Assembly (NCBI GenBank): GCA_050949505.1 | Contig: JBMNFV010000001.1 | Coordinates: 286,284-350,283, forward strand | Direction of reading: 5' to 3' | Length of the DNA stretch: 64,000 nucleotides | Source of the DNA: Patescibacteria group bacterium | Lineage (GTDB): Bacteria > Patescibacteriota > Patescibacteriia > Patescibacteriales > UBA12465 | Shown here: one piece after another, positions 1 to 18,527 of the stretch | Position numbering within the stretch: the first letter of the stretch is position 1 | Layout: each line of letters starts with the position of its first letter | Notes under the pieces: generated by a model | Databases searched by the model: none | What the model was told of the DNA's origin: nothing | The model's input: the letters and a program-made list of their open reading frames with translations, nothing else | Made by a program: the position numbers and the translations under genes

Positions 1-312
1 GCGAGTGAGAAAGGCTTGATTAAACCAAATAACCTTTATAGTCTCACTATCATCGCTAATTAAGGCTTCAGTTAGATAAATACGTCGCTTAAAGCTACGC
101 TTGTTTTGAATTAGTTCAATCTGGCCAATGATATTAAAGCTTTGTCCGGCTCTAAGCTCACTAATTTTAGTTACTTGGCCAAAGTCATCGTAACGGAAAG
201 GGAAGTAATATAAAAGATCGGTGACTGTGTTAAGGTCTAAATTAGCTAAAATTTTAGCCCGAACCGCGCCAACTTGCTTAAGTTCACTAAGATGGGAGTC
301 TAGATTGATCAT
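1..312 (-). CDS. recG: ATP-dependent DNA helicase RecG, N-terminal part (gene continues beyond window start)
   Basis: Absent from the ORF track because it runs off the window. Reverse-strand translation from the ATG at 312-310 reads MINLDSHLSELKQVGAVRAKILANLDLNTVTDLLYYFPFRYDDFGQVTKISELRAGQSFNIIGQIELIQNKRSF... This is the typical RecG N-terminal/wedge pattern (L..VG......L..L.I.T..DLL...P.RY.D). Confidence 0.7.
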   Translation of the reverse strand, partial: MINLDSHLSELKQVGAVRAKILANLDLNTVTDLLYYFPFRYDDFGQVTKISELRAGQSFNIIGQIELIQNKRSFKRRIYLTEALISDDSETIKVIWFNQAFLTR

Positions 313-1038: not shown

Positions 1039-1132
1039 GGAGAGGTGGCTGAGTGGTTGAAAGCGGCACACTGCTAATGTGTTATGCGGGCGTATACCCG
1101 CATCCGGGGTTCGAATCCCCGTCTCTCCGCCA
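1039..1132 (+). tRNA. tRNA-Ser (anticodon GCU), long variable arm, CCA encoded
   Basis: Acceptor GGAGAGG/TCTCTCC, anticodon loop CTGCTAA, long variable arm ATGCGGGCGTATACCCGCAT, T arm GGGGTTCGAATCCCC, 3' GCCA. Confidence 0.9.
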
Positions 1133-7561: not shown

Positions 7562-7590
7562 TTGACAATTTGCTTCAAGTTTATTATAGT
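7562..7590 (+). promoter_or_regulatory. sigma70-type promoter for tRNA-Ser(UGA): TTGACA-N17-TATAGT
   Basis: TTGACA at 7562-7567, a 17-nt spacer, TATAGT at 7585-7590, 14 nt before the tRNA. Confidence 0.55.
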
Positions 7591-9263
7591 AATAGCAATT
7601 TATTGGAGAGATGCCAGAGTGGTTGAATGGAACAGTCTTGAAAACTGTCGTTGGTGCAAGCCAACCGTGGGTTCGAATCCCACTCTCTCCGCCAATTTAC
7701 AATTTCAGAGTTTTCGGAAGTTTTACGCACCTGCGGTGCGGTCGCCTCGCCCGCAGGCGAGGCTGAAAGGGCTGATTTTGCAACGATTTGCCACGCTCCG
7801 CGTGGCGAAAAAGAAATGTTTTGGTTTTGGATTTGGAAGTTCGAACCAATCTTTTTTAGAAAATCCCGAATCCCTTCGGGATTTTCTTTTAAAGCGATAA
7901 TTTTGGCTTGTTTACTGTCATTTATAAACTTGTCGGCGAGTTCGAACCGATTATTGCTTTTTTGTTCAAAAGACTTCAATTTGTCTTTCAAAACTTGTTT
8001 TTGATTGATGAGAACATTTTTCGCTTTTTGGTATTCTTTGATATTCAAGACACTTTCCAAATAAGCGGTCATTAGTTTTTCCAACTTCTCATCAAGTTTT
8101 GAAAGTTCCTTTTCCGTCTTTTGCACAAAAAAGTCTGATGATGTGTCTGATTGGATTTTTTCTTTTTTCAATTCCTTGATCATCCAATCAGCGCAATCAT
8201 CAGGCAAAGAAACTTTTTGAAGTTCCTCACTAATTTGAGATGAAATTTTTTCTTCTCTCGTAAATACCTTTTGCGTGCATTTGTGATGTGGATTTTTCTT
8301 GGTGCAATAGTAGTAAATATATTCTTTCCCACTTTTCTTGATTTTCTTATCTGCCGTTATTGTAAATCCACATTCACCGCACTTGAAAAATCCACGATAA
8401 AGAAAAAATTTCATCTTTTCCACTTTCTGCGGTTTAGATTTTCTTTTCATCACTTCCTGAACTTCGTCAAAAAGCTTCTTTGAAATAATCGGTTTATGCT
8501 TTCCTTCGTAAAATTCACCGCCATAGCGAATAAGTCCATGATAGAAAGGATTTTGCAAAAGGTATTGATAATTTGAAACGGAAAGCATTTTACCTTTCTT
8601 GCCGACAAGTCCCAAGCCGTTGATAATCTTTCGGAGATTTTTCAAAGTATAATTTCCAGTGGCGTATGCCTCAAATGCCTTTTTGATAAATGGCGATTTT
8701 TCTTTATCAACATAAATTAGTTTTGTTTCTTTATTATTCAAATATCCCAAAGGAGCCATTTGAGGCCATAAGCCATTTTTCAATTTTTGCCGATGTCCTC
8801 TCTTGATATTCTCCGAAAGATTATCAACATAATATTTTGACTGTCCGAAAGCTATGGAGAGCATAAATTTGCCTTGCGGAGTGGGATCAAACCAGAAAGT
8901 TGGGAATTTTAGCTCTTGAATAACCCCAGTATCTACGAGATAGATAATTTGTCCGCCGTCAACGCTGTTTCTTGCCAGTCTATCGGGGTGCCAAGCTAAA
9001 ATTCCCACAGCTTCGCCCGCTTCAAGTTTTTTCAACATTTCGGCAAAGAGAGGGCGACCAGGTTTCTTGGCGGTTTGTTTTTCCACAATAGTATCAACAA
9101 TTTCCAAATTTTCCTTTTTCGCTAATTCTTTCAATTCAGAAATCTGGTCGCCAATACTCCGCACCTGTCGATCTTCCGAATCAGTAGATTTGCGGGCGTA
9201 GATGAAAAAATTTCTGTTTTGGTTTGCCGTAGCAGAGCGGAGGCAAGCGGAAACGCACCTCAT
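7584..9263 (-). CDS. large serine recombinase (resolvase/invertase catalytic domain, recombinase domain, zinc ribbon, coiled coil)
   Basis: The catalytic region reads IYARKSTDSEDRQVRSIGDQ and is followed by AWHPDRLARN. The zinc ribbon reads CGECGFTITADKK...YYYCTKKNPHHKC, followed by a long coiled-coil tail. The last 37 codons are antisense to tRNA-Ser and probably reflect read-through across the att junction (see findings). Confidence 0.85.
   Translation of the reverse strand: MRCVSACLRSATANQNRNFFIYARKSTDSEDRQVRSIGDQISELKELAKKENLEIVDTIVEKQTAKKPGRPLFAEMLKKLEAGEAVGILAWHPDRLARNSVDGGQIIYLVDTGVIQELKFPTFWFDPTPQGKFMLSIAFGQSKYYVDNLSENIKRGHRQKLKNGLWPQMAPLGYLNNKETKLIYVDKEKSPFIKKAFEAYATGNYTLKNLRKIINGLGLVGKKGKMLSVSNYQYLLQNPFYHGLIRYGGEFYEGKHKPIISKKLFDEVQEVMKRKSKPQKVEKMKFFLYRGFFKCGECGFTITADKKIKKSGKEYIYYYCTKKNPHHKCTQKVFTREEKISSQISEELQKVSLPDDCADWMIKELKKEKIQSDTSSDFFVQKTEKELSKLDEKLEKLMTAYLESVLNIKEYQKAKNVLINQKQVLKDKLKSFEQKSNNRFELADKFINDSKQAKIIALKENPEGIRDFLKKIGSNFQIQNQNISFSPRGAWQIVAKSALSASPAGEATAPQVRKTSENSEIVNWRREWDSNPRLACTNDSFQDCSIQPLWHLSNKLLLL
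7605..7694 (+). tRNA. tRNA-Ser (anticodon UGA), long variable arm, CCA encoded; predicted integration target of the adjacent element
   Basis: Acceptor GGAGAGA/TCTCTCC, anticodon arm ACAGT-CTTGAAA-ACTGT, variable arm TGGTGCAAGCCAACC, T arm GTGGGTTCGAATCCCAC, 3' GCCA. Confidence 0.9.
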
Positions 9264-9447
9264 TATTCTGGATTTTGTTCAAAAAAAGTTAGAATTTCAA
9301 CCAAAAGGTACCGCCAAATGTAACTTCCGCTTCCGAAAGGAAATCGGGCATTGGGGTAATGGCGATTATGAAGTGAAGCTCGAAAAGGAAGAAGAAATTG
9401 AGCAAGTTTTTGAGCTTATTAAGCAAAGTTATACCTACAACAAATAA
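9202..9447 (+). pseudogene. DUF5655-like C-terminal remnant
   Basis: The tail FVQKKLEFQPKG...IGHWGNGDYEVKLEKEEEIEQVFELIKQSY matches, from memory, the GHWGNGDYE...LIKQSY end of DUF5655 domains. Only about 60 aa of the domain is present. The only upstream ATG lies antisense within the recombinase start. Confidence 0.45.
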
Positions 9448-9449
9448 CT

Positions 9450-10715
9450 ATGGCGAGCAAATCATTAAATAAAAATCTTCATAAGGCGAGCAAAGCAAAG
9501 AATGATGAATTCTATACACAGCTTGGCGATATTGCCAACGAACTCAAACATTACCGTGAACAACTACGCGGCAAGGTTATTTTTTGTAATTGCGATGATC
9601 CGTTTGAGAGTAACTTTTTCAAATATTTTGCTGCTAATTTCAATACGCTCGGCCTTAAAAAGCTTATTTCCACCAGTTTTAGTGGCTCGCCAATCGTGGG
9701 ACAACAAATGCTCCCCGGCTTGATGGAGGGTTTGAAAAAAGCAGAAAAGAAAGAGCCGTATGTGGTGGAAATCAACGAAGTACCGGATATGAACAAAGAC
9801 GGGGCGATAAGTATGGACGACGTTGAGCATTTGCTAAAGCACGATAAAAATGTTTCTACACCACTTAAAGACGGCGATTTTCGTAGTGAGGAATGCGTAG
9901 AACTTCTTAAACAAGCCGATATTGTCATTACCAATCCACCATTCAGTCTTTTTCGTGAATTTGTGGCGCAACTTGTGGAGCATAACAAAAAATTTCTTAT
10001 TATCGGAAGCAAAAATGCCATCACCTATAAAGATATTTTCAAATTGATTAAAGAAAATAAGCTGTGGCTCGGATATGGTTTTGCTGGAGGAAATGCTTAT
10101 TTCAAAATCCCACCAGAGAAGGCGCGCGAATTTGCATCCGGCGTATACGACCCGAATACTGGTCTTGTAAAGTTTCGCAATGTCGGTTGGTACACAAATC
10201 TTTATGTAGATAGGTCTGAAAACCCGCTTACGCCATACCTCACTTATGAGCAAGGCCGCAAGAAAGGACTTTATCCAAAATACGATAATTACGACGCTAT
10301 TGAAGTATCGAAATTAGCTGAAATCCCCACTGATTATGATGGCGTTATGGGGGTTCCGATAACCTTTTTGGATTATTGGACTCCTGATAGCAGCATAGAA
10401 ATAGTCAAATTCAGAAAAGGTGATGACGACAAAGACCTAGCGTTTACGAGAGAGAGAGAGAGTACAACCGTACTTCAGAATACTCATTCGCTATCCTCGG
10501 ACAAACAGGAGTCATTGAACCAGATGGAATCTGTATCGAATACAAAGCGGGCCGACCGTACATCAATGGACAAAGGAAGTATGCGAGATTATTCATCAAA
10601 CAAGTTTGAAATCCTGGGTATCGCAAACTCGGCACGATGGATAGGTTACGAACTGTATACGATTATAGACGGGCGAAAAATTTACAACAGGATTATAATT
10701 AAACGAAGGCAATAA
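9450..10715 (+). CDS. N6-adenine DNA methyltransferase, EcoRI-methylase-like family (PF13651-type)
   Basis: N-terminal KNDEFYT motif, catalytic ITNPPFS (NPPF) and GVMGVPITFLD. The C-terminal region contains an (AG)7 tract and out-of-frame alternative tails (see findings). Confidence 0.85.
   Translation: MASKSLNKNLHKASKAKNDEFYTQLGDIANELKHYREQLRGKVIFCNCDDPFESNFFKYFAANFNTLGLKKLISTSFSGSPIVGQQMLPGLMEGLKKAEKKEPYVVEINEVPDMNKDGAISMDDVEHLLKHDKNVSTPLKDGDFRSEECVELLKQADIVITNPPFSLFREFVAQLVEHNKKFLIIGSKNAITYKDIFKLIKENKLWLGYGFAGGNAYFKIPPEKAREFASGVYDPNTGLVKFRNVGWYTNLYVDRSENPLTPYLTYEQGRKKGLYPKYDNYDAIEVSKLAEIPTDYDGVMGVPITFLDYWTPDSSIEIVKFRKGDDDKDLAFTRERESTTVLQNTHSLSSDKQESLNQMESVSNTKRADRTSMDKGSMRDYSSNKFEILGIANSARWIGYELYTIIDGRKIYNRIIIKRRQ
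10448..10462 (+). repeat. dinucleotide simple-sequence repeat, (GA)7G / (AG)7, inside the methyltransferase coding region
   Basis: GAGAGAGAGAGAGAG read directly at 10448-10462, encoding RERE in the current frame. Confidence 0.95.
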
Positions 10716-10717
10716 AT

Positions 10718-11815
10718 ATGAAAATAGAGCTAAAAAACATAAAAATACGGGATGTGGTGAACGGCTACAAAGACAGTGGCGAGAGTGGCGTGGTCGGTTA
10801 TGGTGGCAAACTCAATATTCGTCCGGCGTTCCAGCGCGAGTTTATTTATGGGCAGAAAGAGCGCGACGCTGTTATACGAACAGTACGATCAGGCTTTCCG
10901 CTCAATACCATGTATTGGTCGGATGATGGAGATGGAAATTTTGAACTTATGGACGGACAACAACGCACAATTTCAATTTGCCAATACGTTACTGAGATTA
11001 TCCCCATTAAGTTTGATGATGGCTATGAACTCGCTTTCAATAATTTGACCGCTGACCAACAGCAGAAAATTTTAGACTACGAACTATCAATTTACATTTG
11101 CGAGGGTACGGAAAGCGAAAAACTCGCGTGGTTTCGGACGATCAATATTGCGGGCAAGCCTTTAACCGATCAGGAACTTCTGAACGCCATGCACACGGGT
11201 CCGTGGCTTGCCGACGCGAAGCGTTGGTTTAGCAAAACCGGCGGGCCAGCATATCAAATTGGCGAGAATTACATAAACGGCTCGCCGATTCGGCAGGACT
11301 ATTTGGAAAAAGCGCTTGACTGGATTTCAGGAGGCAAAATTGAGAATTACATGAGCCTCCATCAGCAAGACGCTGACGCGCAGGAACTATGGCAATACTT
11401 CCAAGCGGTTATAGCGTGGGTGGAGAGAGTATTTCCTGAATATCGCAAGATTATGAAAGGTTTGGAGTGGGGGCGATTTTATAACGAGCACAAAGACGAC
11501 AAACTGAACGCGGCGAGCCTAGAAAGGCGGATTGCAGAATTGATTGCCGATGACGAGGTGGACAGCAAGAAAGGCATTTACGAATATCTGCTAACGGGCA
11601 ACGAAAAGACGCTCAATCTGAGAGTATTTGATGAAAAGACAAAAGTTGCGCAGTACGAAAAACAGAAAGGAATTTGCCCGATATGCAAAAAACATTTCGC
11701 AATTGACGAAATGGAAGCCGATCATATTGTGCCGTGGCACTCTGGCGGGAAAACAATTGAAAAAAATTGCCAAATGTTGTGCAAGCCAGATAACAGGACT
11801 AAATCTGGGAAATAA
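10718..11815 (+). CDS. DUF262 (ParB/Srx-fold, GmrSD N-terminal-like) domain protein with a C-terminal HNH nuclease domain
   Basis: NIRPAFQREFIY and the MDGQQRT (DGQQR) signature of DUF262. The C-terminal region CPICKKHF...ADHIVPWHSGGKT...NCQMLCKPDNRTK is an HNH motif. Confidence 0.85.
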   Translation: MKIELKNIKIRDVVNGYKDSGESGVVGYGGKLNIRPAFQREFIYGQKERDAVIRTVRSGFPLNTMYWSDDGDGNFELMDGQQRTISICQYVTEIIPIKFDDGYELAFNNLTADQQQKILDYELSIYICEGTESEKLAWFRTINIAGKPLTDQELLNAMHTGPWLADAKRWFSKTGGPAYQIGENYINGSPIRQDYLEKALDWISGGKIENYMSLHQQDADAQELWQYFQAVIAWVERVFPEYRKIMKGLEWGRFYNEHKDDKLNAASLERRIAELIADDEVDSKKGIYEYLLTGNEKTLNLRVFDEKTKVAQYEKQKGICPICKKHFAIDEMEADHIVPWHSGGKTIEKNCQMLCKPDNRTKSGK

Positions 11816-11818
11816 ATT

Positions 11819-13102
11819 ATGAAAAAACCTATTCACTATACAAAACTCATAGTAAATCCGGAGAACTATCGCTTTGATCCAGTAGAGAATCAAGAAGAAG
11901 CGATTGATTTAATGCTTGAAGAAAAAGGGTCAGAAATTGTCAATCTTGCAAAGCATATTTTAGAACACGGGCTAGACGAGGCTAAAGATTTCAGAGTTTT
12001 AGAGGTGAAATCAGGAAAGTACCTTGTGCTGGACGGCAATAGACGAACAACGGCAATTAAATGTTTACATGATCAATCTTTTATAAAAGATGAGAAAATA
12101 AAAAAAGCATTTCAAAATCTAGCCAAAACAAAAAAAGTAGCACCAAAAAATATTCAATCCTTTGTCTACGCTGATGAAAAATCGGCAGCTAAATGGATTA
12201 AGTTAGATCATACTGGTAAAAATGAAGGCGTTGGTCAAGATTCATGGGGGTCTGCAGAAAAAGACAGATTCGCATATAAGTTTGAGGGTAAAATTTCTCC
12301 GGCAATGCAAGCTGTTTCAGTCATAGAGAAAGAATTAAACAAAAAAATCGATACGAAGAAATTAAAGGTATCTACAATCAATCGCATACTATCAAATCCA
12401 GAATCTCGGTCATACTTAGGAGTGAATGTTAGTGGTAGTAAATTGATTTTCACAGCAGCTAAAAAAGAGGCTTGCGCACGCTTGGATAAGTTGTTCGATA
12501 AAGTTATTCAAGACAATGTAACTGTCGCAAGTGTTTATCACACACCTCAAACAATTGAATTTATGAAAGAGCTTTTTGGAGATAAGCCAAAAGACTCAAC
12601 TAAACCAACTCTTCCATTTCACGAAAACGAAGACGTTAAAACTAAAGAAGAAAAGCAAAGAAAAACACAAAGAGAGAAAGCTAAGCAGCAAAAATTCTTC
12701 GGGAAAGATTTGTTCTTAAAAAAAGGAGACACGAATAATATTTACATGGATATATTAGATTTGCATGGTTTTTATGTAAGTAATACTGCTAAGCTTTCCA
12801 AAAATTTTCCCGCAATGATTAGAATGTCTTTGCGATTGCTTGTTGAATCTGCAACGCCTGAAAAGAAAAAAATTGCTGATTATGTGAATAGTAATTTTGT
12901 TGAAGCGAAAGAGGCTTTGACCACGGATCAAAAGACAACATTAGCAAACAACAGTATAAATAATGCAGGAAATTTAATTCAGTTATTACAATCTGGGGCG
13001 CACAACTACGCGAATTCTGCTAATTTTGAACAAACAGTCGCTATGTCAATTATCATAGGAGCGATGTTAGACATAACACACGCAAAACACAATGAAAAGT
13101 AA
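11819..13102 (+). CDS. ParB/sulfiredoxin-like N-terminal domain protein with an uncharacterised helical C-terminal domain
   Basis: NPENYRFDP...LVLDGNRRTTAIKCL resembles the ParB N-terminal DGxRR motif. It is followed by a lysine-rich linker and a C-terminal domain of about 130 aa of unknown family. Confidence 0.7.
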   Translation: MKKPIHYTKLIVNPENYRFDPVENQEEAIDLMLEEKGSEIVNLAKHILEHGLDEAKDFRVLEVKSGKYLVLDGNRRTTAIKCLHDQSFIKDEKIKKAFQNLAKTKKVAPKNIQSFVYADEKSAAKWIKLDHTGKNEGVGQDSWGSAEKDRFAYKFEGKISPAMQAVSVIEKELNKKIDTKKLKVSTINRILSNPESRSYLGVNVSGSKLIFTAAKKEACARLDKLFDKVIQDNVTVASVYHTPQTIEFMKELFGDKPKDSTKPTLPFHENEDVKTKEEKQRKTQREKAKQQKFFGKDLFLKKGDTNNIYMDILDLHGFYVSNTAKLSKNFPAMIRMSLRLLVESATPEKKKIADYVNSNFVEAKEALTTDQKTTLANNSINNAGNLIQLLQSGAHNYANSANFEQTVAMSIIIGAMLDITHAKHNEK

Positions 13103-13958
13103 AGCTGACAAAAAAATATCTGGTTTTTCGAGTCCGCTTCGTTATCCAGGCGGGAAAACACGTCTTGCCAACAAACTACTTGAGGCAATAGAGAAAAACT
13201 GCAACCAAAAAGAAAAGGTGATTTTGGTTGAGCCGTATGCCGGTGGAGCGGGCGCTTCCCTTGCTTTGCTTTTTGCAAAAAAAGTTGAAAAAATTGTTAT
13301 CAACGATCTTGATAAGGCAATTTTCACATTCTGGAAAATAGCGGTTTCCGATACTGACTATTTAATCAATAAAATACGGCGAACCGATATAACTATAGAG
13401 GAATGGAGAAAGCAAAAAGCAATTTATGCTTCGACAAAAAGCAAGCGCAAACTTGCATTTGCCACTTTATTTTTAAATAGAACAAATCGCTCCGGAATAA
13501 TGAATGGCGGGCCGATTGGCGGAACTGATCAATCCGGAACATGGAAAGTAAGTGCACGCTTTACCAAACAAACTATTATTGATCGGCTTGAAAAAATTAA
13601 AGAATTTCATAATAAAATTGAAGTGTACAATCTGGACGGCATAGAATTGTTAAAAAAGCTGGAAGAACGAAAAAACCGAAGCCAATATTTTATATTTCTT
13701 GACCCACCGTATTTTCAAAAAGGGCAATCTCTATACTTGAACCATTACAGCAACAAAGATCACGAAAATCTATCAGAATTTTTGGAAAAATCATCATTCA
13801 AGAAGTGGATTATGACTTACGATGACGTTCCATATATTAAAAACTTATACGCAACAATGCGGACAAAAGGATTTGCTATTCAACACAATGCGTATGAGTC
13901 AAAAGTGGGCAGAGAGGTAATGATCTTTCCAAAAGAGTTTATTCCAGTGAATCTTTAA
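13092..13958 (+). CDS. Dam-family (D12 class) N6-adenine DNA methyltransferase
   Basis: LRYPGGKTRL, EPYAGGAG (SAM-binding) and the catalytic DPPY motif. The start overlaps the upstream gene by 11 nt (ATGAAAAGTAA). Confidence 0.9.
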   Translation: MKSKADKKISGFSSPLRYPGGKTRLANKLLEAIEKNCNQKEKVILVEPYAGGAGASLALLFAKKVEKIVINDLDKAIFTFWKIAVSDTDYLINKIRRTDITIEEWRKQKAIYASTKSKRKLAFATLFLNRTNRSGIMNGGPIGGTDQSGTWKVSARFTKQTIIDRLEKIKEFHNKIEVYNLDGIELLKKLEERKNRSQYFIFLDPPYFQKGQSLYLNHYSNKDHENLSEFLEKSSFKKWIMTYDDVPYIKNLYATMRTKGFAIQHNAYESKVGREVMIFPKEFIPVNL

Positions 13959-14129
13959 GGGAGTTCCGCTTGCGCGCGCAGAGAGTATCACCACGCGCTC
14001 CGCGCGTACGATTTGGCTCAGAGCCACCACGCACGCGGAGCGTGCGCAGATCAATCGCTTCGCGATTGGAAAAAGGTTCGCGCAAAGGTTAATATTTCAC
14101 CGCCACATTGTGTTAGCACGAAATGGTTT

Positions 14130-14159
14130 AAAACAGAGCTTATTTAAGGCTCTGTTTTT
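14130..14159 (+). terminator. rho-independent terminator; likely the original tRNA-Ser terminator, displaced by the insertion
   Basis: AAAACAGAGC-ttatttaag-GCTCTGTTTT followed by T. Confidence 0.6.
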
Positions 14160-14266: not shown

Positions 14267-14956
14267 ATGAGTCAAAAATTACATCAATTATTAAAAGATT
14301 TAAGAGAGCAGAAAAGCCTATCACAACAAGAAGTAGCTGAAAAATTAGGCATGTCTAGGCCTTCCTATATTTTAATTGAACAAGGGAAGAGGGGCTTAAC
14401 TTTATTAGAAGCTCAGATAATAACAAAAATGTTTGGTATTAGTTTAGGGGACCTGGAAATGGGAGTAGTGCCAGATATAGAAAAGTACAAAGAGATGATT
14501 CTTTCGTTTCTTAGATTTTTTAATATCAAAGGAGATGGCAAGGTTCCAAAAACTAAATTAGCTAAATTATTATATTTAGCAGATTTTTCTTATTACTATG
14601 CTAATTTTGAAAGTATGAGTGGAATGCAATACCGAAGACTTAAATATGGTCCAGTTTCAGATTTGTATTTTAGAGCCCTAGATGAGTTGGAGGAGGAAGG
14701 GAGAATAGAGCGAGACAACAGGAAGAGCGATGTAATATTAATAAGTGAAAATGAGGGCTCTAAAAAAGCATCATTAAAAAGATTACAAGAAAAAGAGGCA
14801 GGCCTCATTACTAAGATTGCCAAAAAATGGGAAGATAAAAAAACTAGAGAGATTGTTAACTTCACTCACAATCAATTACCCTATAAGGCCAGCTTGCCTG
14901 ATGAAACTATTTCTTACGAATTAATCATTCAAGAAGATCCGGGACATGTTTATTAA
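14267..14956 (+). CDS. XRE-family HTH fused to a Panacea/DUF4065 (SocA-like) antitoxin domain
   Basis: The HTH reads LSQQEVAEKLGMSRPSYILIEQGKRGLTLLEA. It is followed by KTKLAKLLYLADFSYYYANFESMSGMQYRRLKYGPVS, the DUF4065 core pattern. The ATG at 14267 is preferred over the TTG at 14216. Confidence 0.8.
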   Translation: MSQKLHQLLKDLREQKSLSQQEVAEKLGMSRPSYILIEQGKRGLTLLEAQIITKMFGISLGDLEMGVVPDIEKYKEMILSFLRFFNIKGDGKVPKTKLAKLLYLADFSYYYANFESMSGMQYRRLKYGPVSDLYFRALDELEEEGRIERDNRKSDVILISENEGSKKASLKRLQEKEAGLITKIAKKWEDKKTREIVNFTHNQLPYKASLPDETISYELIIQEDPGHVY

Positions 14957-15338
14957 ATACAATGTTAAAACAGAAGATTTTGCCGAAAAGTATTATATAA
15001 AAAAATTTAGAAAAAAATATAAAACATATTGGGAGACAACCTTCAGGGGGCTTGAGAAGGTTTTAGAAAATTTAGACAGCGTCAGGGGCACCGATATGAT
15101 AGAGGAAATAAGTAGTCAAGGAGATTTAGCGGTGCTAAAAATGCAGTTTCGTGTAGCTGGCACTAATTTCTCCAAAAAGACCTCAGGCAACAGATGTATT
15201 TTATCGGCAAATAGAAAAACAAGAGAAATAAGGATTTTATTGGTTTATCATAAAAACGATCTAGGGGGCAAAAATGAAACAGTCACTTGGAAAAAATTGA
15301 TTAGAGATAATTATAGTGATTATTATTTTTGTAAATAA
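14946..15338 (+). CDS. putative toxin, RelE/ParE-superfamily (Gp49/HigB-like)
   Basis: 130 aa, overlapping the antitoxin gene by 11 nt. KKTSGNRCILSANRKTREIRILLVYHKNDLGGKNETVTW resembles the GKSGGYRvIy...LLtvYdK...nls core of Gp49/HigB-like toxins. This match was made by eye only. Confidence 0.55.
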   Translation: MFIKYNVKTEDFAEKYYIKKFRKKYKTYWETTFRGLEKVLENLDSVRGTDMIEEISSQGDLAVLKMQFRVAGTNFSKKTSGNRCILSANRKTREIRILLVYHKNDLGGKNETVTWKKLIRDNYSDYYFCK

Positions 15339-15351
15339 TAAAAGTAAAAAT

Positions 15352-16200
15352 ATGAAAAAAACAATAAAACAAAAGAATATAAAACCAGTAATTTTTGAAG
15401 AAAAGACAATTAGGAGAGATTGGCATGATAATGAATGGTATTTTTCTATTGTTGATATTGTGGCAGTTTTATCTCAAAGTAATAACCCAAATAGATATTG
15501 GAGTGACCTTAAAAGAAAGCTTGTTTCTGAAGGATATTATGAGTTATACGAAAAAATCGTACAACTGAAATTACCAGCAACAGATGGTAAAAAATATAAA
15601 ACGGATAGCATAAATTTGCAAGGAATTTTTCGTATCATTCAAGCAATTTCTTCCCCTAAAGCAGAGCCTTTTAAGCAGTGGCTCGCAAAAGTAGGGCAAG
15701 AACGAATTGAGGAAATGGTTAATCCAGAAATAGCCTTGAATCGCTCCCGTGAATACTGGCAAAAGCATGGACGAAGTGAGAAGTGGATACAACAAAGAAT
15801 GATGGGGCAAGAAACGAGGAACAAATTAACTGATTATTGGAAATCAGCTAATGTTAAGAAGGGTGAAGAGTATGCAATTTTGACAAATATCATTCATCAA
15901 GAGTGGAGTGACCTTGATGTCCAAGAACATAAGAAATTAAAAAGACTTGATAAGTCTATAAACTTACGGGACCACATGTCAGAAGCTGAATTGATTTTTA
16001 CCGCTCTTGCTGAATTATCTACCAGGCAGATCGCAGAGTCTGAGCACTCACAGGACTTAGAAGAAAACAAGATTCCGGCAAAGCGAGGGGGAAGGATTGC
16101 TAAAGATGCACGATTAGCTCTTGAGAAAAAAACAGGTCAAAAAGTGGTGAGCGCTGAAAACTATTTACCAACACAAAAATCTAAGAAGAGATTAAAATAA
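15352..16200 (+). CDS. Bro-N domain protein (DinD / phage antirepressor-like)
   Basis: WYFSIVDIVAVLSQSNNPNRYWSDLKRKL...PFKQWLAKVGQERIEE matches the Bro-N/DinD pattern. Confidence 0.75.
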   Translation: MKKTIKQKNIKPVIFEEKTIRRDWHDNEWYFSIVDIVAVLSQSNNPNRYWSDLKRKLVSEGYYELYEKIVQLKLPATDGKKYKTDSINLQGIFRIIQAISSPKAEPFKQWLAKVGQERIEEMVNPEIALNRSREYWQKHGRSEKWIQQRMMGQETRNKLTDYWKSANVKKGEEYAILTNIIHQEWSDLDVQEHKKLKRLDKSINLRDHMSEAELIFTALAELSTRQIAESEHSQDLEENKIPAKRGGRIAKDARLALEKKTGQKVVSAENYLPTQKSKKRLK

Positions 16201-17347: not shown

Positions 17348-17695
17348 ATGACTAGGGCAGTCATCAAACTAAAAAGAATCTATGAGGAGCCAGCTAGCAA
17401 TGATGGTTTAAGAGTTTTAGTAGATCGTCTTTGGCCCCGAGGAGTTTTAAAAGAGCGAGCACAGCTAGATGCTTGGTTAAAAGAGCTAGCACCATCAACT
17501 GAGTTGCGACAATGGTTTAACCATGACCCAGAGAAGTGGCTAGAATTTAAAAAGCGTTATCGCCAGGAATTAAAAGATAGCCAAGTGTTAGAAGAGCTTC
17601 AAGAAATGATTAAGCAAAATAAAGTGATCACCCTTCTTTTTGCCGCTAAAGATGAAGCACATAATGAAGCGGTGGTGTTGAAAGAAATATTATAA
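17348..17695 (+). CDS. DUF488 (YeaO-like) family protein
   Basis: KRIYEEPASNDGLRVLVDRLWPRGV...APSTELRQWFNHDPEKW..F..RY is the DUF488 signature. Confidence 0.8.
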   Translation: MTRAVIKLKRIYEEPASNDGLRVLVDRLWPRGVLKERAQLDAWLKELAPSTELRQWFNHDPEKWLEFKKRYRQELKDSQVLEELQEMIKQNKVITLLFAAKDEAHNEAVVLKEIL

Positions 17696-17881
17696 CAATA
17701 AAAAATAATATAATAATTAATTTGTTATGTTAAAAAATTTTGAATATTTAGGAACTATAGGTGAGCTGCAGTCTAATAATTACAATTGGAGAGAAGTTTC
17801 AAATTCCAAGGGTGTTTATGTGATGATTTTATAAAAATTTTATTAGATAAAAAATTTTATAAAAAAATAATATTTAAATTT

Positions 17882-18130
17882 ATGAAAAAAGAGTTAATTT
17901 TAAAAATTGTATTTTATTTAATCATTGCTTTATCGGTATTGTTTATTATTAATAAAATTAACAAATATTTAGATGCTAGAGTTCAGTATGAAAATATTGA
18001 GTGCCATAATAGGGCATATATAATTTATAAACAGCATGATGACCAAAATTATCAGGCAAAAAATCGAGATTGGTCTTTAAGAAATACCGAATGCTCACAA
18101 ATAGAAGCTAAATATCAAAGAGGATTCTAG
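17882..18130 (+). CDS. small hypothetical membrane-anchored protein
   Basis: ATG at 17882, N-terminal TM helix ILKIVFYLIIALSVLFII. Lies in very AT-rich sequence. Confidence 0.35.
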   Translation: MKKELILKIVFYLIIALSVLFIINKINKYLDARVQYENIECHNRAYIIYKQHDDQNYQAKNRDWSLRNTECSQIEAKYQRGF

Positions 18131-18527
18131 CTTTAAAAATTTATAATTAATAAAAATAAAAATATGTTTTTTAACTGGTCTCTTATTATTAATATAGCTT
18201 TAGGAGTAATAATTGGAGGAGTATTTCTCTATATACTAAAAGATGTTGCAGAGTTTATTTTTGAATTAATGTTTGACAAATAAATCAAAAAGAGCGACTC
18301 TAATTAGATTAATATAATAAACTCGTCTATAGATTAATTTGTAGCTTAACAGAGCTGTTAAACCTGAGTGATGCATATTGGATTCAATCTATAAATTATA
18401 AAAAATATAGCTTTTAAGTATTTAGCCAAGCACTTTAAGCTAAAAGCTGTTTAAAGGATTTAGTTGGATATAGAAACTTAGGTCAGGTAATTATTTGCTA
18501 AACAAATAGGAGCTATCTAAATCTTTT

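What the first reader, a model, noticed from the sequence alone, without database searches (positions are those of the whole stretch)
7686..14105. Predicted boundaries of a 6.4-kb serine-recombinase element at tRNA-Ser(UGA), with a short core repeat and a displaced tRNA terminator
Seen:
- The intact tRNA-Ser(UGA) ends ...TCTCCGCCA at 7686-7694.
- A near-identical TCACCGCCA occurs at 14097-14105.
- Between them lie a large serine recombinase and the methyltransferase/nuclease operon.
- Deleting 7695-14105 would leave the tRNA followed 25 nt later by a clean rho-independent terminator (14130-14159), the expected layout of an unoccupied tRNA locus.

Established:
- Large serine integrases use short att cores with a central dinucleotide and do not generate long direct repeats, so a 6-9-nt shared core is what would be expected.

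Inference:
- attL is around 7689-7694 and attR around 14100-14105.
Basis: partly seen in the sequence, partly recalled or inferred. Interest (0 to 1): 0.6.

Follow-up and report, generated by a model that had tools for sequence, protein, structure and literature searches.

The report
Defence island inserted at tRNA-Ser
A 6.4-kb piece of mobile DNA carrying a serine recombinase and two anti-phage defence systems sits exactly at the end of a serine tRNA gene, a near-identical relative lacks it at precisely the predicted junctions, and the recombinase belongs to a very large family in Patescibacteria, not found described in my literature searches, whose own gene spans its attachment site.

Summary
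The observation and the predicted boundaries are correct. An independent metagenome scaffold (L004) is 99.6% identical on both flanks. It joins the tRNA-Ser(UGA) end directly to CATTGTGTTAGC and the terminator, so 7695-14105 (6,411 bp) is an insertion with a 6-bp shared core, CCGCCA.

The agent is a large serine recombinase (LSR). In 58 of 80 related loci, almost all Patescibacteria MAGs, its 3' end overlaps an antisense tRNA-Ser gene. The element arm carries the tRNA T-arm motif 5 bp further from the core than the tRNA does, which is the attP/attB hallmark of serine integrases.

New findings:
- The island has a third core at 9311-9316. It looks like a 1.6-kb LSR-only unit in tandem with an LSR-less cargo unit.
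- The cargo is a type II R-M system plus PD-Lambda-5.
- Across the family, attP lies inside the LSR gene. Integration therefore swaps a conserved, protein-constrained 15-20-aa C-terminal tail for tRNA-antisense codons. Most relatives also keep a second, inverted attP.
- This copy is rearranged: N-terminus replaced, right arm atypical.

No circular junction was found. Verdict: a real, ordinary-in-kind integrative defence island, in a family with unusual architecture that I found described nowhere.

The parts
7562..7590 (+). promoter-like site of the tRNA (TTGACA-17-TATAGT)
   Evidence: 11 of 12 consensus positions. A consensus match only.
7605..7694 (+). tRNA-Ser(UGA), intact. This is the B arm of attL.
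   Evidence: ARAGORN; Rfam tRNA 59.4 bits. Identical in the empty-site scaffold L004 (no SNP inside it).
7689..7694 (.). attL core CCGCCA. The crossover is inferred to be the CC at 7689-7690.
   Evidence: Identity shared with 14100-14105 and with the L004 junction. Far-end cores in relatives vary at the CA positions, so the common core is CCGC. With CC as centre, the motif positions equal those of LI integrase. The placement is an inference.
7695..7930 (.). P' arm: the antisense of the recombinase 3' end, with GC-rich hairpins at 7744-7763, 7790-7806 and 7860-7885
   Evidence: Homologous to the inverted P' copies upstream of the recombinase in L006, L009 and L010. Hairpins. 7868-7884 is terminator-like on the + strand.
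7584..9263 (-). large serine recombinase ORF, 559 aa as integrated. Residues 1-18 are atypical, 19-525 are the conserved body, and 526-559 are encoded by tRNA antisense.
   Evidence: Pfam Resolvase 2.7e-19, Recombinase 4.4e-15, Zn_ribbon_recom 1.2e-10. A118 integrase 4KIS, E 4.9e-10. N-terminus comparison. C-terminus.
9202..9316 (-). internal P arm with core CCGCCA at 9311-9316. On the minus strand it reads TGGCGG followed by the tail codons YLLVEILTFFEQNPE-stop (9316..9266). Its distal motif is fused to recombinase codon ~19.
   Evidence: nhmmer P-arm profile E 7e-17. Near-identical to L010 1-131.
9317..9447 (+). arm X: about 25 nt of weakly P'-like sequence, then the 3' end of a truncated cargo gene
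   Evidence: tblastn 58% identity over 36 aa to the C-terminus of a full-length 317-aa ORF, L069 14351-15304, which heads an R-M operon.
9450..10715 (+). type II DNA methyltransferase (EcoRI-methylase family)
   Evidence: Pfam PF13651 4.4e-124; PADLOC MTase_II 1.3e-106.
10718..11815 (+). type II restriction endonuclease (GmrSD_N/DUF262 + HNH)
   Evidence: PADLOC REase_II 2.6e-138, full length; Pfam GmrSD_N and HNH.
11819..13102 (+). PD-Lambda-5 component A
   Evidence: PADLOC PD-Lambda-5_A 3.9e-72; no Pfam hit.
13092..13958 (+). PD-Lambda-5 component B (D12/Dam-type methyltransferase)
   Evidence: PADLOC PD-Lambda-5_B 7e-103; Pfam MethyltransfD12 2.8e-20.
13960..14099 (.). right-hand P arm, the long version with GC hairpins at 13966-13983, 13992-14007, 14030-14046 and 14052-14068. 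The part next to the core is atypical and gives TGA directly after WR.
   Evidence: Alignment to the P arms of L006, L009, L012 and L060. Motif spacing, and my count. Hairpin coordinates.
14100..14105 (.). attR core CCGCCA
   Evidence: junction with B' confirmed by L004.
14106..14159 (+). B' arm with the displaced tRNA terminator (14130-14159)
   Evidence: In L004 this follows the tRNA directly, with the terminator 25 nt after CCA. Fold.

Best explanation
Positions 7695-14105 are an integrated genomic island. A large serine recombinase (LSR) placed it in the 3' end of tRNA-Ser(UGA).

**Shown**
- The whole 6,411 bp is absent, with an exact junction, in a 99.6%-identical relative.
- The tRNA 3' end is regenerated and its terminator is displaced 6.4 kb.
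- The enzyme has the LSR domain set.
- Its relatives sit in the same way on tRNA-Ser genes throughout Patescibacteria.

**Inferred mechanism**
- The LSR binds an attP made of a P' arm (its own 3' coding end) and a P arm (the codons of a short C-terminal tail).
- It binds an attB made of the tRNA acceptor/T-arm plus the downstream DNA.
- It exchanges strands at a dinucleotide inside CCGCCA, most likely the CC at 7689-90 and 14100-01.
- The P arm imitates the tRNA T-arm (TTCGAAC-like motif) but places it 5 bp further out. This is how serine integrases tell attP from attB.
- Because attP lies inside the gene, integration cuts the ORF after ...NWR. It replaces the conserved tail YLL(V/D)(E/K)I(L/R)TFF(E/D)(Q/E)NP(D/E) with tRNA-antisense residues.

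**This copy is composite and partly decayed**
- An LSR-only unit (7695-9316) has the arm layout of a simple element: P' ... P.
- An LSR-less cargo unit (9317-14105) carries a type II R-M system and PD-Lambda-5. Its first gene is truncated at the internal core and its right arm is atypical.
- The LSR N-terminus and promoter have been replaced by P-arm sequence.

I think the outer boundaries and the LSR as agent are very likely right. The two-unit tandem history is moderately likely. A functional role for the tail swap is possible but untested.
For: **Boundaries**
- Empty site L004.
- The same attR appears in three other samples (L088, L091; 100%-identical cargo contigs L095-L097).
- The same B' flank is joined to a different full-length P arm in L090, which is independent occupancy of this attB.

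**Enzyme and family**
- Domains.
- 7,665 homologues at E<=1e-20 among the candidates scored.
- 489 relatives confirmed in species-representative genomes, 80 kept.
- In 58 of 80, the 3' end overlaps or abuts an antisense tRNA-Ser (gct 19, gga 18, cga 12, tga 11, act 1).
- Only one distant relative in 2.9 M viral contigs.

**att sites**
- Consensus attL P'rc-TgGCGG-AGaGgGnGgGATTCGAAC (n=56).
- Consensus attP P'rc-TgGCGG-TnCnTtTTGGacaAAaTtCGAAC (n=49). Both.
- The 5-bp ZD-motif shift is described for LI integrase in PMC3783163.

**Tail**
- Open for 17-21 codons in all 55 distinct P arms.
- Entropy at codon positions 1/2/3 is 0.53/0.48/1.02.
- Of the 120 closest clusters, 16 end in the tail and 66 read into tRNA antisense.
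- An AF2 model puts residues 511-532 in one helix at pLDDT 71-85.

**Composite structure**.

**Cargo**. Cargo of 22 relatives is dominated by DNA methyltransferases and restriction enzymes.

**Composition**.
Against: - No excised circle or attP junction was found. Mobility of this copy is therefore unproven.
- The right-hand arm lacks the family's spacing. The T-arm-like motif sits either 11 bp too close or 1 bp too far, depending on the alignment. It encodes no tail.
- The LSR has lost its normal first ~18 codons and its promoter. It may be inactive, and the island fixed.
- No recombination directionality factor is evident.
- The window's arrangement, with two P arms in direct orientation, is unique among the 80 loci. 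Its history is a reconstruction.
- GC content shows no step.
- The crossover dinucleotide is inferred, not observed.
- Conservation of the tail could partly reflect DNA-site constraint.
Confidence: 0.8

Rival explanations
1. One element, one event. A single 6.4-kb circle with one attP integrated at the tRNA. The internal CCGCCA with its P arm at 9262-9316 is a leftover of the family's usual second attP, scrambled by later inversion or deletion. It is not the seam between two elements.
For: - L004 lacks the whole 6,411 bp at once.
- 48 of 80 relatives carry an internal attP next to the recombinase, so an internal site is normal for single elements of this family.
- Cargo and LSR unit are linked with 100% identity in several samples.
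Against: - In relatives the internal P arm is inverted relative to the far-end arm and is followed by a P' copy and the promoter. Here it is direct, fused to recombinase codon ~19, and followed by a truncated cargo gene.
- The segment 7695-9316 has exactly the P'...P layout of a simple integrated element.
- Tandem or hybrid sites occur in relatives (L022, L031).
Confidence: 0.3
2. The recombinase is now mainly a resident invertase or rearrangement enzyme rather than an integrase. In the family, cargo and recombinase modules are each flanked by inverted arms. The enzyme would flip them, for example to vary defence-gene expression or its own C-terminus, and the island is otherwise fixed.
For: - Cargo is flanked by inverted P arms, near-identical over 90-400 nt, in 19 loci. 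The LSR is flanked by inverted P' copies of roughly 60-190 nt.
- The LSR module occurs in both orientations relative to the tRNA in the same lineage (L006/L007/L098/L099 against L008-L010).
- The LSR lies between two inverted tRNA-Ser genes in L018 and L077.
- 35 of 80 contigs break within 500 nt upstream of the LSR.
Against: - In the window the arms are direct, not inverted.
- Presence/absence polymorphism at exact att junctions shows insertion or excision.
- Canonical LSRs pair only attP with attB, or attL with attR plus an RDF (PMC3783163). They do not pair attP with attL or attR.
- Both orientations are equally explained by integration through either of two attP sites.
- No two orientations were seen within one population.
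Confidence: 0.1
3. The recombinase did not make the insertion. L004 arose by deletion between the short repeats, or the 6.4 kb arrived by another route (transposition, homologous exchange of flanks) and the recombinase is a passenger.
For: - The shared core is only 6 bp (8 of 9), and similar 9-mers occur elsewhere by chance.
- IS-mediated change does occur at this locus (L002/L088).
Against: - The junctions fall exactly where 58 relatives have theirs, at the tRNA-Ser 3' end with the LSR 3' end abutting.
- Both island ends are recognisable family arms.
- Another family member occupies the same position in L090.
- The arm motifs follow serine-integrase geometry.
Confidence: 0.04
4. It is a prophage or phage satellite remnant using a phage serine integrase.
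For: Serine integrases are best known from temperate phages. The closest solved structure is the phage A118 integrase.
Against: - No structural, replication or packaging genes. All cargo is R-M or defence.
- Cargo in 22 relatives is 1.8-8.3 kb and mostly methyltransferases and restriction enzymes.
- One distant hit in 2.9 M viral contigs.
Confidence: 0.03

Closest known systems
Phage-type large serine integrases (A118/LI, phiC31, Bxb1, SPbeta SprA)
   Same: - Resolvase catalytic domain + recombinase domain + zinc ribbon with a long helical insert.
- Short core without long direct repeats.
- Shared arm motif 5 bp further from the centre in attP than in attB (PMC3783163).
   Different: - The target is the 3' end of tRNA-Ser genes of any anticodon.
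- Not phage-borne; carries small defence cargos.
- attP lies inside the integrase gene, so the C-terminus depends on integration state.
- Most elements keep a second inverted attP.
- About 70 extra C-terminal residues beyond the region that aligns to A118.
SCC elements (SCCmec, ACME) moved by Ccr large serine recombinases (from my own knowledge)
   Same: - Non-phage islands moved by LSRs into one conserved chromosomal site at the 3' end of a housekeeping gene.
- Variable cargo.
- Composite tandem arrays bounded by three or more short att cores, in which units may lack their own recombinase.
   Different: - The target is rlmH (orfX), not a tRNA.
- Ccr genes sit inside the element, away from the att sites.
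- No tail swap and no inverted second attP.
- Different host phylum.
tRNA-targeting genomic or defence islands with tyrosine integrases (P4-like and similar; from my own knowledge)
   Same: - Insertion at a tRNA 3' end that regenerates the tRNA.
- Integrase gene next to the tRNA.
- Defence cargo.
- Tandem accretion at one tRNA.
   Different: - Different enzyme superfamily and chemistry.
- Those elements duplicate 15-50 bp or more of the tRNA. Here only 6 bp are shared.
Elements whose attP lies inside one of their own genes: SSV1-type fuselloviruses (int gene split by integration) and mycobacteriophages with integration-dependent immunity (attP in the repressor gene) (from my own knowledge)
   Same: Integration changes the C-terminal end of an element-encoded protein, so the protein made depends on whether the element is free or integrated.
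   Different: - Those use tyrosine integrases.
- Here the gene affected is the serine recombinase itself and only a 15-20-aa tail is exchanged.
- The functional consequence here is untested.
Hin/Gin/Cin-type invertible segments (from my own knowledge)
   Same: In relatives, the recombinase gene and an adjacent segment are each bracketed by inverted sites.
   Different: - Those are small serine invertases with enhancer/Fis dependence.
- Here the enzyme is an LSR, the brackets are att half-site combinations, and the window copy has direct, not inverted, arms.

Membership tests
Large serine recombinase (serine integrase) | N-terminal resolvase-type catalytic domain with the Ser nucleophile | tested here: met
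   PF00239 2.7e-19 over residues 20-165. The motif FFIYARKST is conserved with all 45 homologues inspected.
Large serine recombinase (serine integrase) | Recombinase domain plus zinc ribbon domain with a coiled-coil insert | tested here: met
   PF07508 4.4e-15 and PF13408 1.2e-10. Residues 180-452 align to the A118 integrase C-terminal domain 4KIS. The AF2 model of the 96%-identical P0001 has long helices at 350-397 and 403-453.
Large serine recombinase (serine integrase) | Short att core, no long direct repeat at the element ends | tested here: met
   Only CCGCCA (8 of 9 with flanks) is shared by attL, attR and the empty site.
Large serine recombinase (serine integrase) | attP and attB share an outer (ZD) motif that is 5 bp closer to the centre in attB | tested here: met
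   Family consensus: TTCGAAC is at +12..18 after the core in the tRNA arm (n=56) and +17..23 in the P arm (n=49). Rule taken from PMC3783163. The window's internal P arm fits; its right-end arm does not.
Large serine recombinase (serine integrase) | Catalyses attP x attB recombination, with excision needing a directionality factor | not testable with these tools
Integrative genomic island at a tRNA gene | Presence/absence polymorphism with an exact junction in close relatives | tested here: met
   L004: 887/891 and 535/537 identical flanks, junction as predicted.
Integrative genomic island at a tRNA gene | Target gene restored by the element end | tested here: met
   The tRNA is intact in the occupied state and identical to the empty allele.
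Integrative genomic island at a tRNA gene | Foreign composition | tested here: met
   Tetranucleotide distance 0.407, above all 45 control segments. GC alone gives no signal.
Integrative genomic island at a tRNA gene | Excised circular form (attP junction) detectable | tested here: inconclusive
   The exact junction was not found in viral or metagenome contigs. The metagenome collection also lacked the tRNA itself, so that search had no power.
Type II restriction-modification system | Adjacent methyltransferase and endonuclease | tested here: met
   PADLOC MTase_II 1.3e-106 and REase_II 2.6e-138 in adjacent genes. Activity not testable.
PD-Lambda-5 defence system | Two adjacent genes, A and B (B a Dam-like methyltransferase) | tested here: met
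   PD-Lambda-5_A 3.9e-72 and PD-Lambda-5_B 7e-103 in overlapping adjacent genes. Anti-phage activity not testable.
Prophage | Virion, packaging or replication genes | tested here: not met
   None among the island's genes. One distant relative in the viral contig collection.
Invertible DNA switch | Segment bracketed by inverted recombination sites and seen in both orientations | tested here: not met
   In the window the two P arms are direct. In relatives the inverted arms are present and both LSR orientations occur in different samples, but never within one population. For the family this remains inconclusive.

The most novel reading that the evidence does not exclude
Across Patescibacteria, this recombinase family uses an attP placed inside its own gene as a sensor of integration state.
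- The free form, or the form integrated through the second attP, makes an enzyme with a conserved C-terminal helix-tail.
- Integration through the gene-internal attP replaces that tail with tRNA-antisense residues. This would change activity or directionality without a separate directionality factor.
- The retained second, inverted attP makes the elements double-headed. They can capture further tRNA-Ser genes, stack in tandem, exchange defence cargos and invert chromosome segments between tRNA-Ser genes.
Probability: 0.3. Interest if true: 0.75.

Novelty: new variant of a known kind. Interest (0 to 1): 0.6.

Why it matters
**For the scan.** A boundary prediction made from raw sequence alone is verified to the base by a natural empty site.

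**For biology.**
- The element belongs to a family with hundreds of members in species-representative genomes of Patescibacteria, organisms for which mobile elements and genetic tools are poorly known.
- Six literature searches found no description of it.
- The family moves restriction-modification and other defence genes between tRNA-Ser loci.
- It targets a site present in every bacterium.
- It has its attachment site inside the recombinase gene, so the enzyme's C-terminus differs between free and integrated states.

If that tail exchange controls activity, it would be a new way of setting directionality in serine integrases. These enzymes are widely used for genome engineering, and directionality control is a practical limitation there. 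A clearly defined attP (about 50 bp) and a tRNA-Ser attB make this directly testable.

Tried and rejected
- **Circular junction.** An exact search for AATATTTCACCGCCAATTTACAATTT (a 25-nt sub-string of it in the viral scan) gave no match in viral contigs or metagenome contigs.
- **tRNA 3' half in metagenome contigs.** No match, so that collection does not hold this organism and could give no further empty sites.
- **GC content as a boundary marker.** No step. Tetranucleotides had to be used.
- **The 9-mer as evidence by itself.** Rejected. There are six matches in the window, one of them inside the recombinase gene.
- **Direct and inverted repeat search of 7-20 kb.** No longer att repeat, and no inverted copy of the LSR 3' end in this window.
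- **Short (~2 kb) contigs with tail-bearing recombinases as possible free mini-circles (L098, L099).** They have no terminal direct repeat. They start in the inverted P' copy and end in the P arm, so they are assembly fragments between repeats.
- **Rfam.** The GC-rich hairpin arms match no known RNA family above threshold.
- **Prophage reading.** Rejected.
- **Using L090's A-for-C difference after the core to place the crossover.** No consistent placement, so I treat it as a host SNP.
- **The right arm as a simple 11-nt deletion.** MAFFT prefers an ungapped alignment that puts a CGAAC motif 1 bp off. Both readings are kept.
- **AF2 model.** Only moderate quality (pLDDT 64.5, pTM 0.37). I used it only for the local helix prediction.

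Full report
**1. The observation**

ARAGORN finds tRNA-Ser(tga) at 7605-7694, ending TCTCCGCCA. TCACCGCCA lies at 14097-14105. Five genes lie between them:
- a 559-aa minus-strand ORF (9263..7584) with Resolvase, Recombinase and Zn_ribbon_recom domains;
- four plus-strand genes.

14130-14159 folds into a 12-bp hairpin followed by a T run.

The 9-mer alone is weak evidence. TCNCCGCCA occurs six times in the window, one of them inside the recombinase gene. A further CCGCCA sits at 9311-9316.

**2. The boundary test**

I looked up contigs that encode exactly the 177-aa protein upstream of the tRNA. This returned a 1,428-nt scaffold from another sample (L004, ENA ERZ28615095). In it the tRNA end is followed directly by CATTGTGTTAGC..., with the terminator 25 nt after CCA, and then the HTH gene that lies at 14267 in the window.
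- The flanks match the window at 887/891 and 535/537 positions without a gap.
- The inserted DNA is 6,411 bp, and the position of the exchange is undetermined only within CCGCCA.

Further support:
- Tetranucleotide composition of the insert is further from the rest of the window (0.407) than any of 45 control segments (maximum 0.268). GC content is the same.
- The same right junction occurs in other samples (L088, L091).
- Three 100%-identical cargo contigs come from further samples.
- In L090 the same downstream flank is joined to a different, full-length element arm. Another member of the family has used this very site.

**3. The recombinase and its family**

The protein aligns to the A118 serine integrase C-terminal domain (4KIS, E 4.9e-10). 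It has 7,665 homologues at E<=1e-20 among the candidates scored. A scan of one genome per species confirmed 489 relatives, of which 80 loci were kept. Nearly all are Patescibacteria (CPR) MAGs.
- In 58 of the 80 loci, the 3' end of the recombinase gene overlaps or abuts a tRNA-Ser gene on the opposite strand, with any anticodon: gct 19, gga 18, cga 12, tga 11, act 1.
- A 60%-identical subclade lies next to tRNA-Gln or tRNA-Lys.
- Only one distant relative exists in 2.9 million viral contigs.
- Six literature searches found no description of such elements.

**4. The att sites**

I wrote each site in the recombinase sense and aligned the sites on the core.
- attL consensus: P'rc-TgGCGG-AGaGgGnGgGATTCGAAC (tRNA antisense, n=56).
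- attP consensus: P'rc-TgGCGG-TnCnTtTTGGacaAAaTtCGAAC...TTTTTGA..AAAATCC (n=49).

So the element's P arm copies the T-arm motif of the tRNA but places it 5 bp further from the core. Rutherford et al. describe exactly this relation for the zinc-ribbon-domain motif of LI integrase: bp 16-24 in attP and 11-19 in attB (PMC3783163).

If the crossover dinucleotide is the GG at core positions 5-6 (CC at 7689-90), my count gives:
- GATTCGAAC at 11-19 in the tRNA arm;
- AATTCTAAC at 16-24 in the window's internal P arm.

Far-end cores in relatives vary at the first two positions (TGGCGG, TTGCGG, GTGCGG, GAGCGG...). The common core is therefore GCGG, which again points to GG. The placement is an inference.

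**5. attP lies inside the gene**

The window ORF has no stop before the tRNA. After ...EIVNWR (residue 525) it runs 34 codons through the tRNA in antisense. The 120 closest protein clusters divide as follows:
- 66 end in such tRNA-antisense sequence (...WRRGWDSNPR...);
- 16 end instead in a conserved tail, WR[YC]LL[DV][KE]I[RL]TFF[ED][QE]NP[DE].

That tail is encoded by the P arm.
- In all 55 distinct P arms the frame stays open for 17-21 codons.
- Variability is twice as high at third codon positions (entropy 0.53/0.48/1.02). L5, F12, N15 and P16 are essentially invariant although their third positions vary.
- The tail is therefore constrained as protein, not only as a DNA site.
- An AF2 model of the 96%-identical tailed protein P0001 is of moderate quality overall (pLDDT 64.5). 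It puts residues 511-532, spanning the core-encoded WR, in a single helix at pLDDT 71-85.

Integration through this attP therefore cuts that helix and changes the C-terminus. Whether this alters activity is untested.

**6. The usual architecture in relatives**

In the recombinase sense, most loci read:

host - [B'rc-core-Prc] - cargo - [P-core-P'] - promoter - recombinase - [P'rc-core-tRNA antisense].

- The internal, inverted attP is present in 48 of 80 loci. Of the 52 loci with at least 400 nt of upstream sequence, 38 have it.
- Both P arms are seen in 19 loci, with 1.8-8.3 kb of cargo between them.
- The two P arms of one locus are near-identical over 90-400 nt.
- The P' copy matches the recombinase 3' end over roughly 60-190 nt.
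- In L006, L007, L098 and L099 the recombinase module has the other orientation and keeps its tail. L007 shows tRNA-Ser(gga)-core-P'-promoter-recombinase-core-tail.

A circle with two inverted attP sites, integrating through either one, explains both forms. Site-specific inversion is an alternative that I cannot exclude.

L018 and L077 have the recombinase module between two inverted tRNA-Ser genes. This is what a retained attP capturing a second tRNA-Ser would produce.

Cargo of 22 relatives (86 ORFs) is dominated by DNA methyltransferases (N6_N4 10, D12 5, C5 2) and restriction enzymes (TdeIII, HpaII, BsaWI, TaqI).

**7. The window copy is different**

On the minus strand, directly upstream of the listed start codon, lies ...TTACATTTGGCGG TAC CTT TTG GTT GAA ATT CTA ACT TTT TTT GAA CAA AAT CCA GAA TAA. 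This is a core plus a complete tail (9316..9266). It matches the P-arm profile at E 7e-17.
- The internal P arm is in direct, not inverted, orientation relative to the right-end arm.
- Its distal motif is fused to recombinase codon ~19 at a short homology (AGAAAnTTTTTCAT). It replaces the family's MTNSNNTKEQTRK... N-terminus and the promoter. The catalytic FFIYARKST motif is intact.
- To the right of this core are about 25 nt of weakly P'-like sequence. Then comes the last ~36 codons of a gene that is full length (317 aa) at the head of an R-M operon in L069.
- The right end (13960-14099) is clearly a P arm of the long, hairpin-bearing type. Next to the core it is atypical. Either 11 nt are missing or the motif is 1 bp out of register, and TGA follows WR directly.

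The simplest reading is two units in tandem, as in composite SCC islands:
- a 1,622-bp recombinase-only unit (7695-9316) with the P'...P layout of a simple element;
- a 4,789-bp recombinase-less cargo unit (9317-14105) with worn arms.

A single rearranged element is the main alternative.

The predicted product depends on which sites recombine:
- Excision of the small unit alone would restore the tail.
- Excision of the whole island would give a protein ending at NWR.

**8. Cargo**

PADLOC gives:
- MTase_II (1.3e-106) and REase_II (2.6e-138) for 9450-11815;
- PD-Lambda-5 A (3.9e-72) and B (7e-103) for 11819-13958.

The island carries two defence systems and no phage-like genes.

**9. What is not shown**

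No circular junction was found. The metagenome collection did not even contain the tRNA, so that test had little power. This copy may be immobile:
- its N-terminus is altered;
- its right arm is atypical;
- no directionality factor is evident.

In GCA_025563055.1 the left 5 kb of the island (7695-12760) are replaced by about 115 nt plus an IS. This shows that the island decays in situ.

**10. Verdict**

The thing itself is an integrative defence island of a known general kind. The family it belongs to has features I found described nowhere:
- tRNA-Ser targeting by a serine integrase across a whole superphylum;
- attP inside the integrase gene, with exchange of a conserved tail;
- a second inverted attP.

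Noticed in passing
window 14267-16200: Directly right of the island lies a second defence-like cluster that is present in the empty-site relative. It comprises an HTH + SocA/Panacea protein, a 130-aa ORF, and a Bro-N protein matching the PADLOC candidate system PDC-S13 (E 4.8e-112). This tRNA locus is a defence hot spot.
   Followed up: partly
window 17600-18400: A very AT-rich stretch (GC 0.21-0.26) a few kb beyond the island. Not examined.
   Followed up: no
window 1039-1132: A second tRNA-Ser (gct) ends in the same TCTCCGCCA and keeps its own terminator. It is an unoccupied potential attB in the same genome.
   Followed up: partly
L002 10672-10932 and L088 1-200 (both GCA_025563055.1): A third allele. 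The left flank is 4999/5000 identical, but CCA is followed by about 115 nt containing a terminator and then an IS with 12-bp terminal inverted repeats (TGGAAGGTACCC). On the other contig that IS abuts window position 12761. The island's left 5 kb (recombinase, R-M, most of PD-Lambda-5 A) are missing.
   Followed up: partly
L090 1-60 (Logan ERR4682867): The same downstream flank is joined to a different, full-length P arm (...CGAACTTCGTCCAAAAAACACCGCCAAATTGTG; tail WRCFLDEVR...). A different family member occupies the same attB. The base after the core is A instead of C.
   Followed up: partly
window 7744-7763, 7790-7806 and the matching positions in 56 loci: There are GC-rich hairpins inside the recombinase C-terminal coding region. 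One, CACGCGGAGCGTG, is conserved in sequence and codes PRGAW. The other keeps a strong stem and triloop while its sequence, and the encoded peptide, change (e.g. cggcGc..gCgccg against cggcAc..gTgccg). This suggests selection on nucleic-acid structure. Possible roles are a substitute terminator or insulator after the tRNA, or an mRNA 3' stabiliser. No Rfam match.
   Followed up: partly
L018 53-2059; L077 9801-11605: The recombinase module lies between two different tRNA-Ser genes in inverted orientation. This is as expected if both attP sites of one element recombined with tRNA-Ser genes, and it hints at recombinase-driven chromosome rearrangement.
   Followed up: no
L047 13474-15057; L069 15445-17133; L055, L059, L075, L082, L084, L087: More distant paralogues (33-41% identity) overlap tRNA-Ala(ggc) or tRNA-Ser(gct) in the same way. 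A 60%-identical subclade sits about 130 nt from tRNA-Gln or tRNA-Lys. tRNA 3'-end targeting seems to be a general habit of this wider recombinase group.
   Followed up: no
window 9202-9447 (+): An 81-aa ORF is an in-frame fusion of three parts: the antisense of the recombinase 5' end/P arm, the internal core, and the 3' remnant of the truncated cargo gene. It has no Pfam hit and is probably an accident of the rearrangement.
   Followed up: partly
window 9260-9270 (minus strand): The tail stop overlaps the recombinase start (gaaTAATGagg). In a circularised 1,622-bp unit the ORF would end and restart at the same spot.
   Followed up: no
L022 1680, L031 7820 (far-end sites): The 'far-end' sites of these loci are P arms joined to the P' arm of another subfamily rather than to host DNA. 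They are therefore hybrid or tandem arrays of different family members.
   Followed up: no
80 genome loci: 35 of 80 contigs end within 500 nt upstream of the recombinase start. The exact-match contigs L095-L097 start inside the internal P arm (9235 or 9287). The shared arms evidently break assemblies, so these elements are probably under-represented or split in MAGs.
   Followed up: partly
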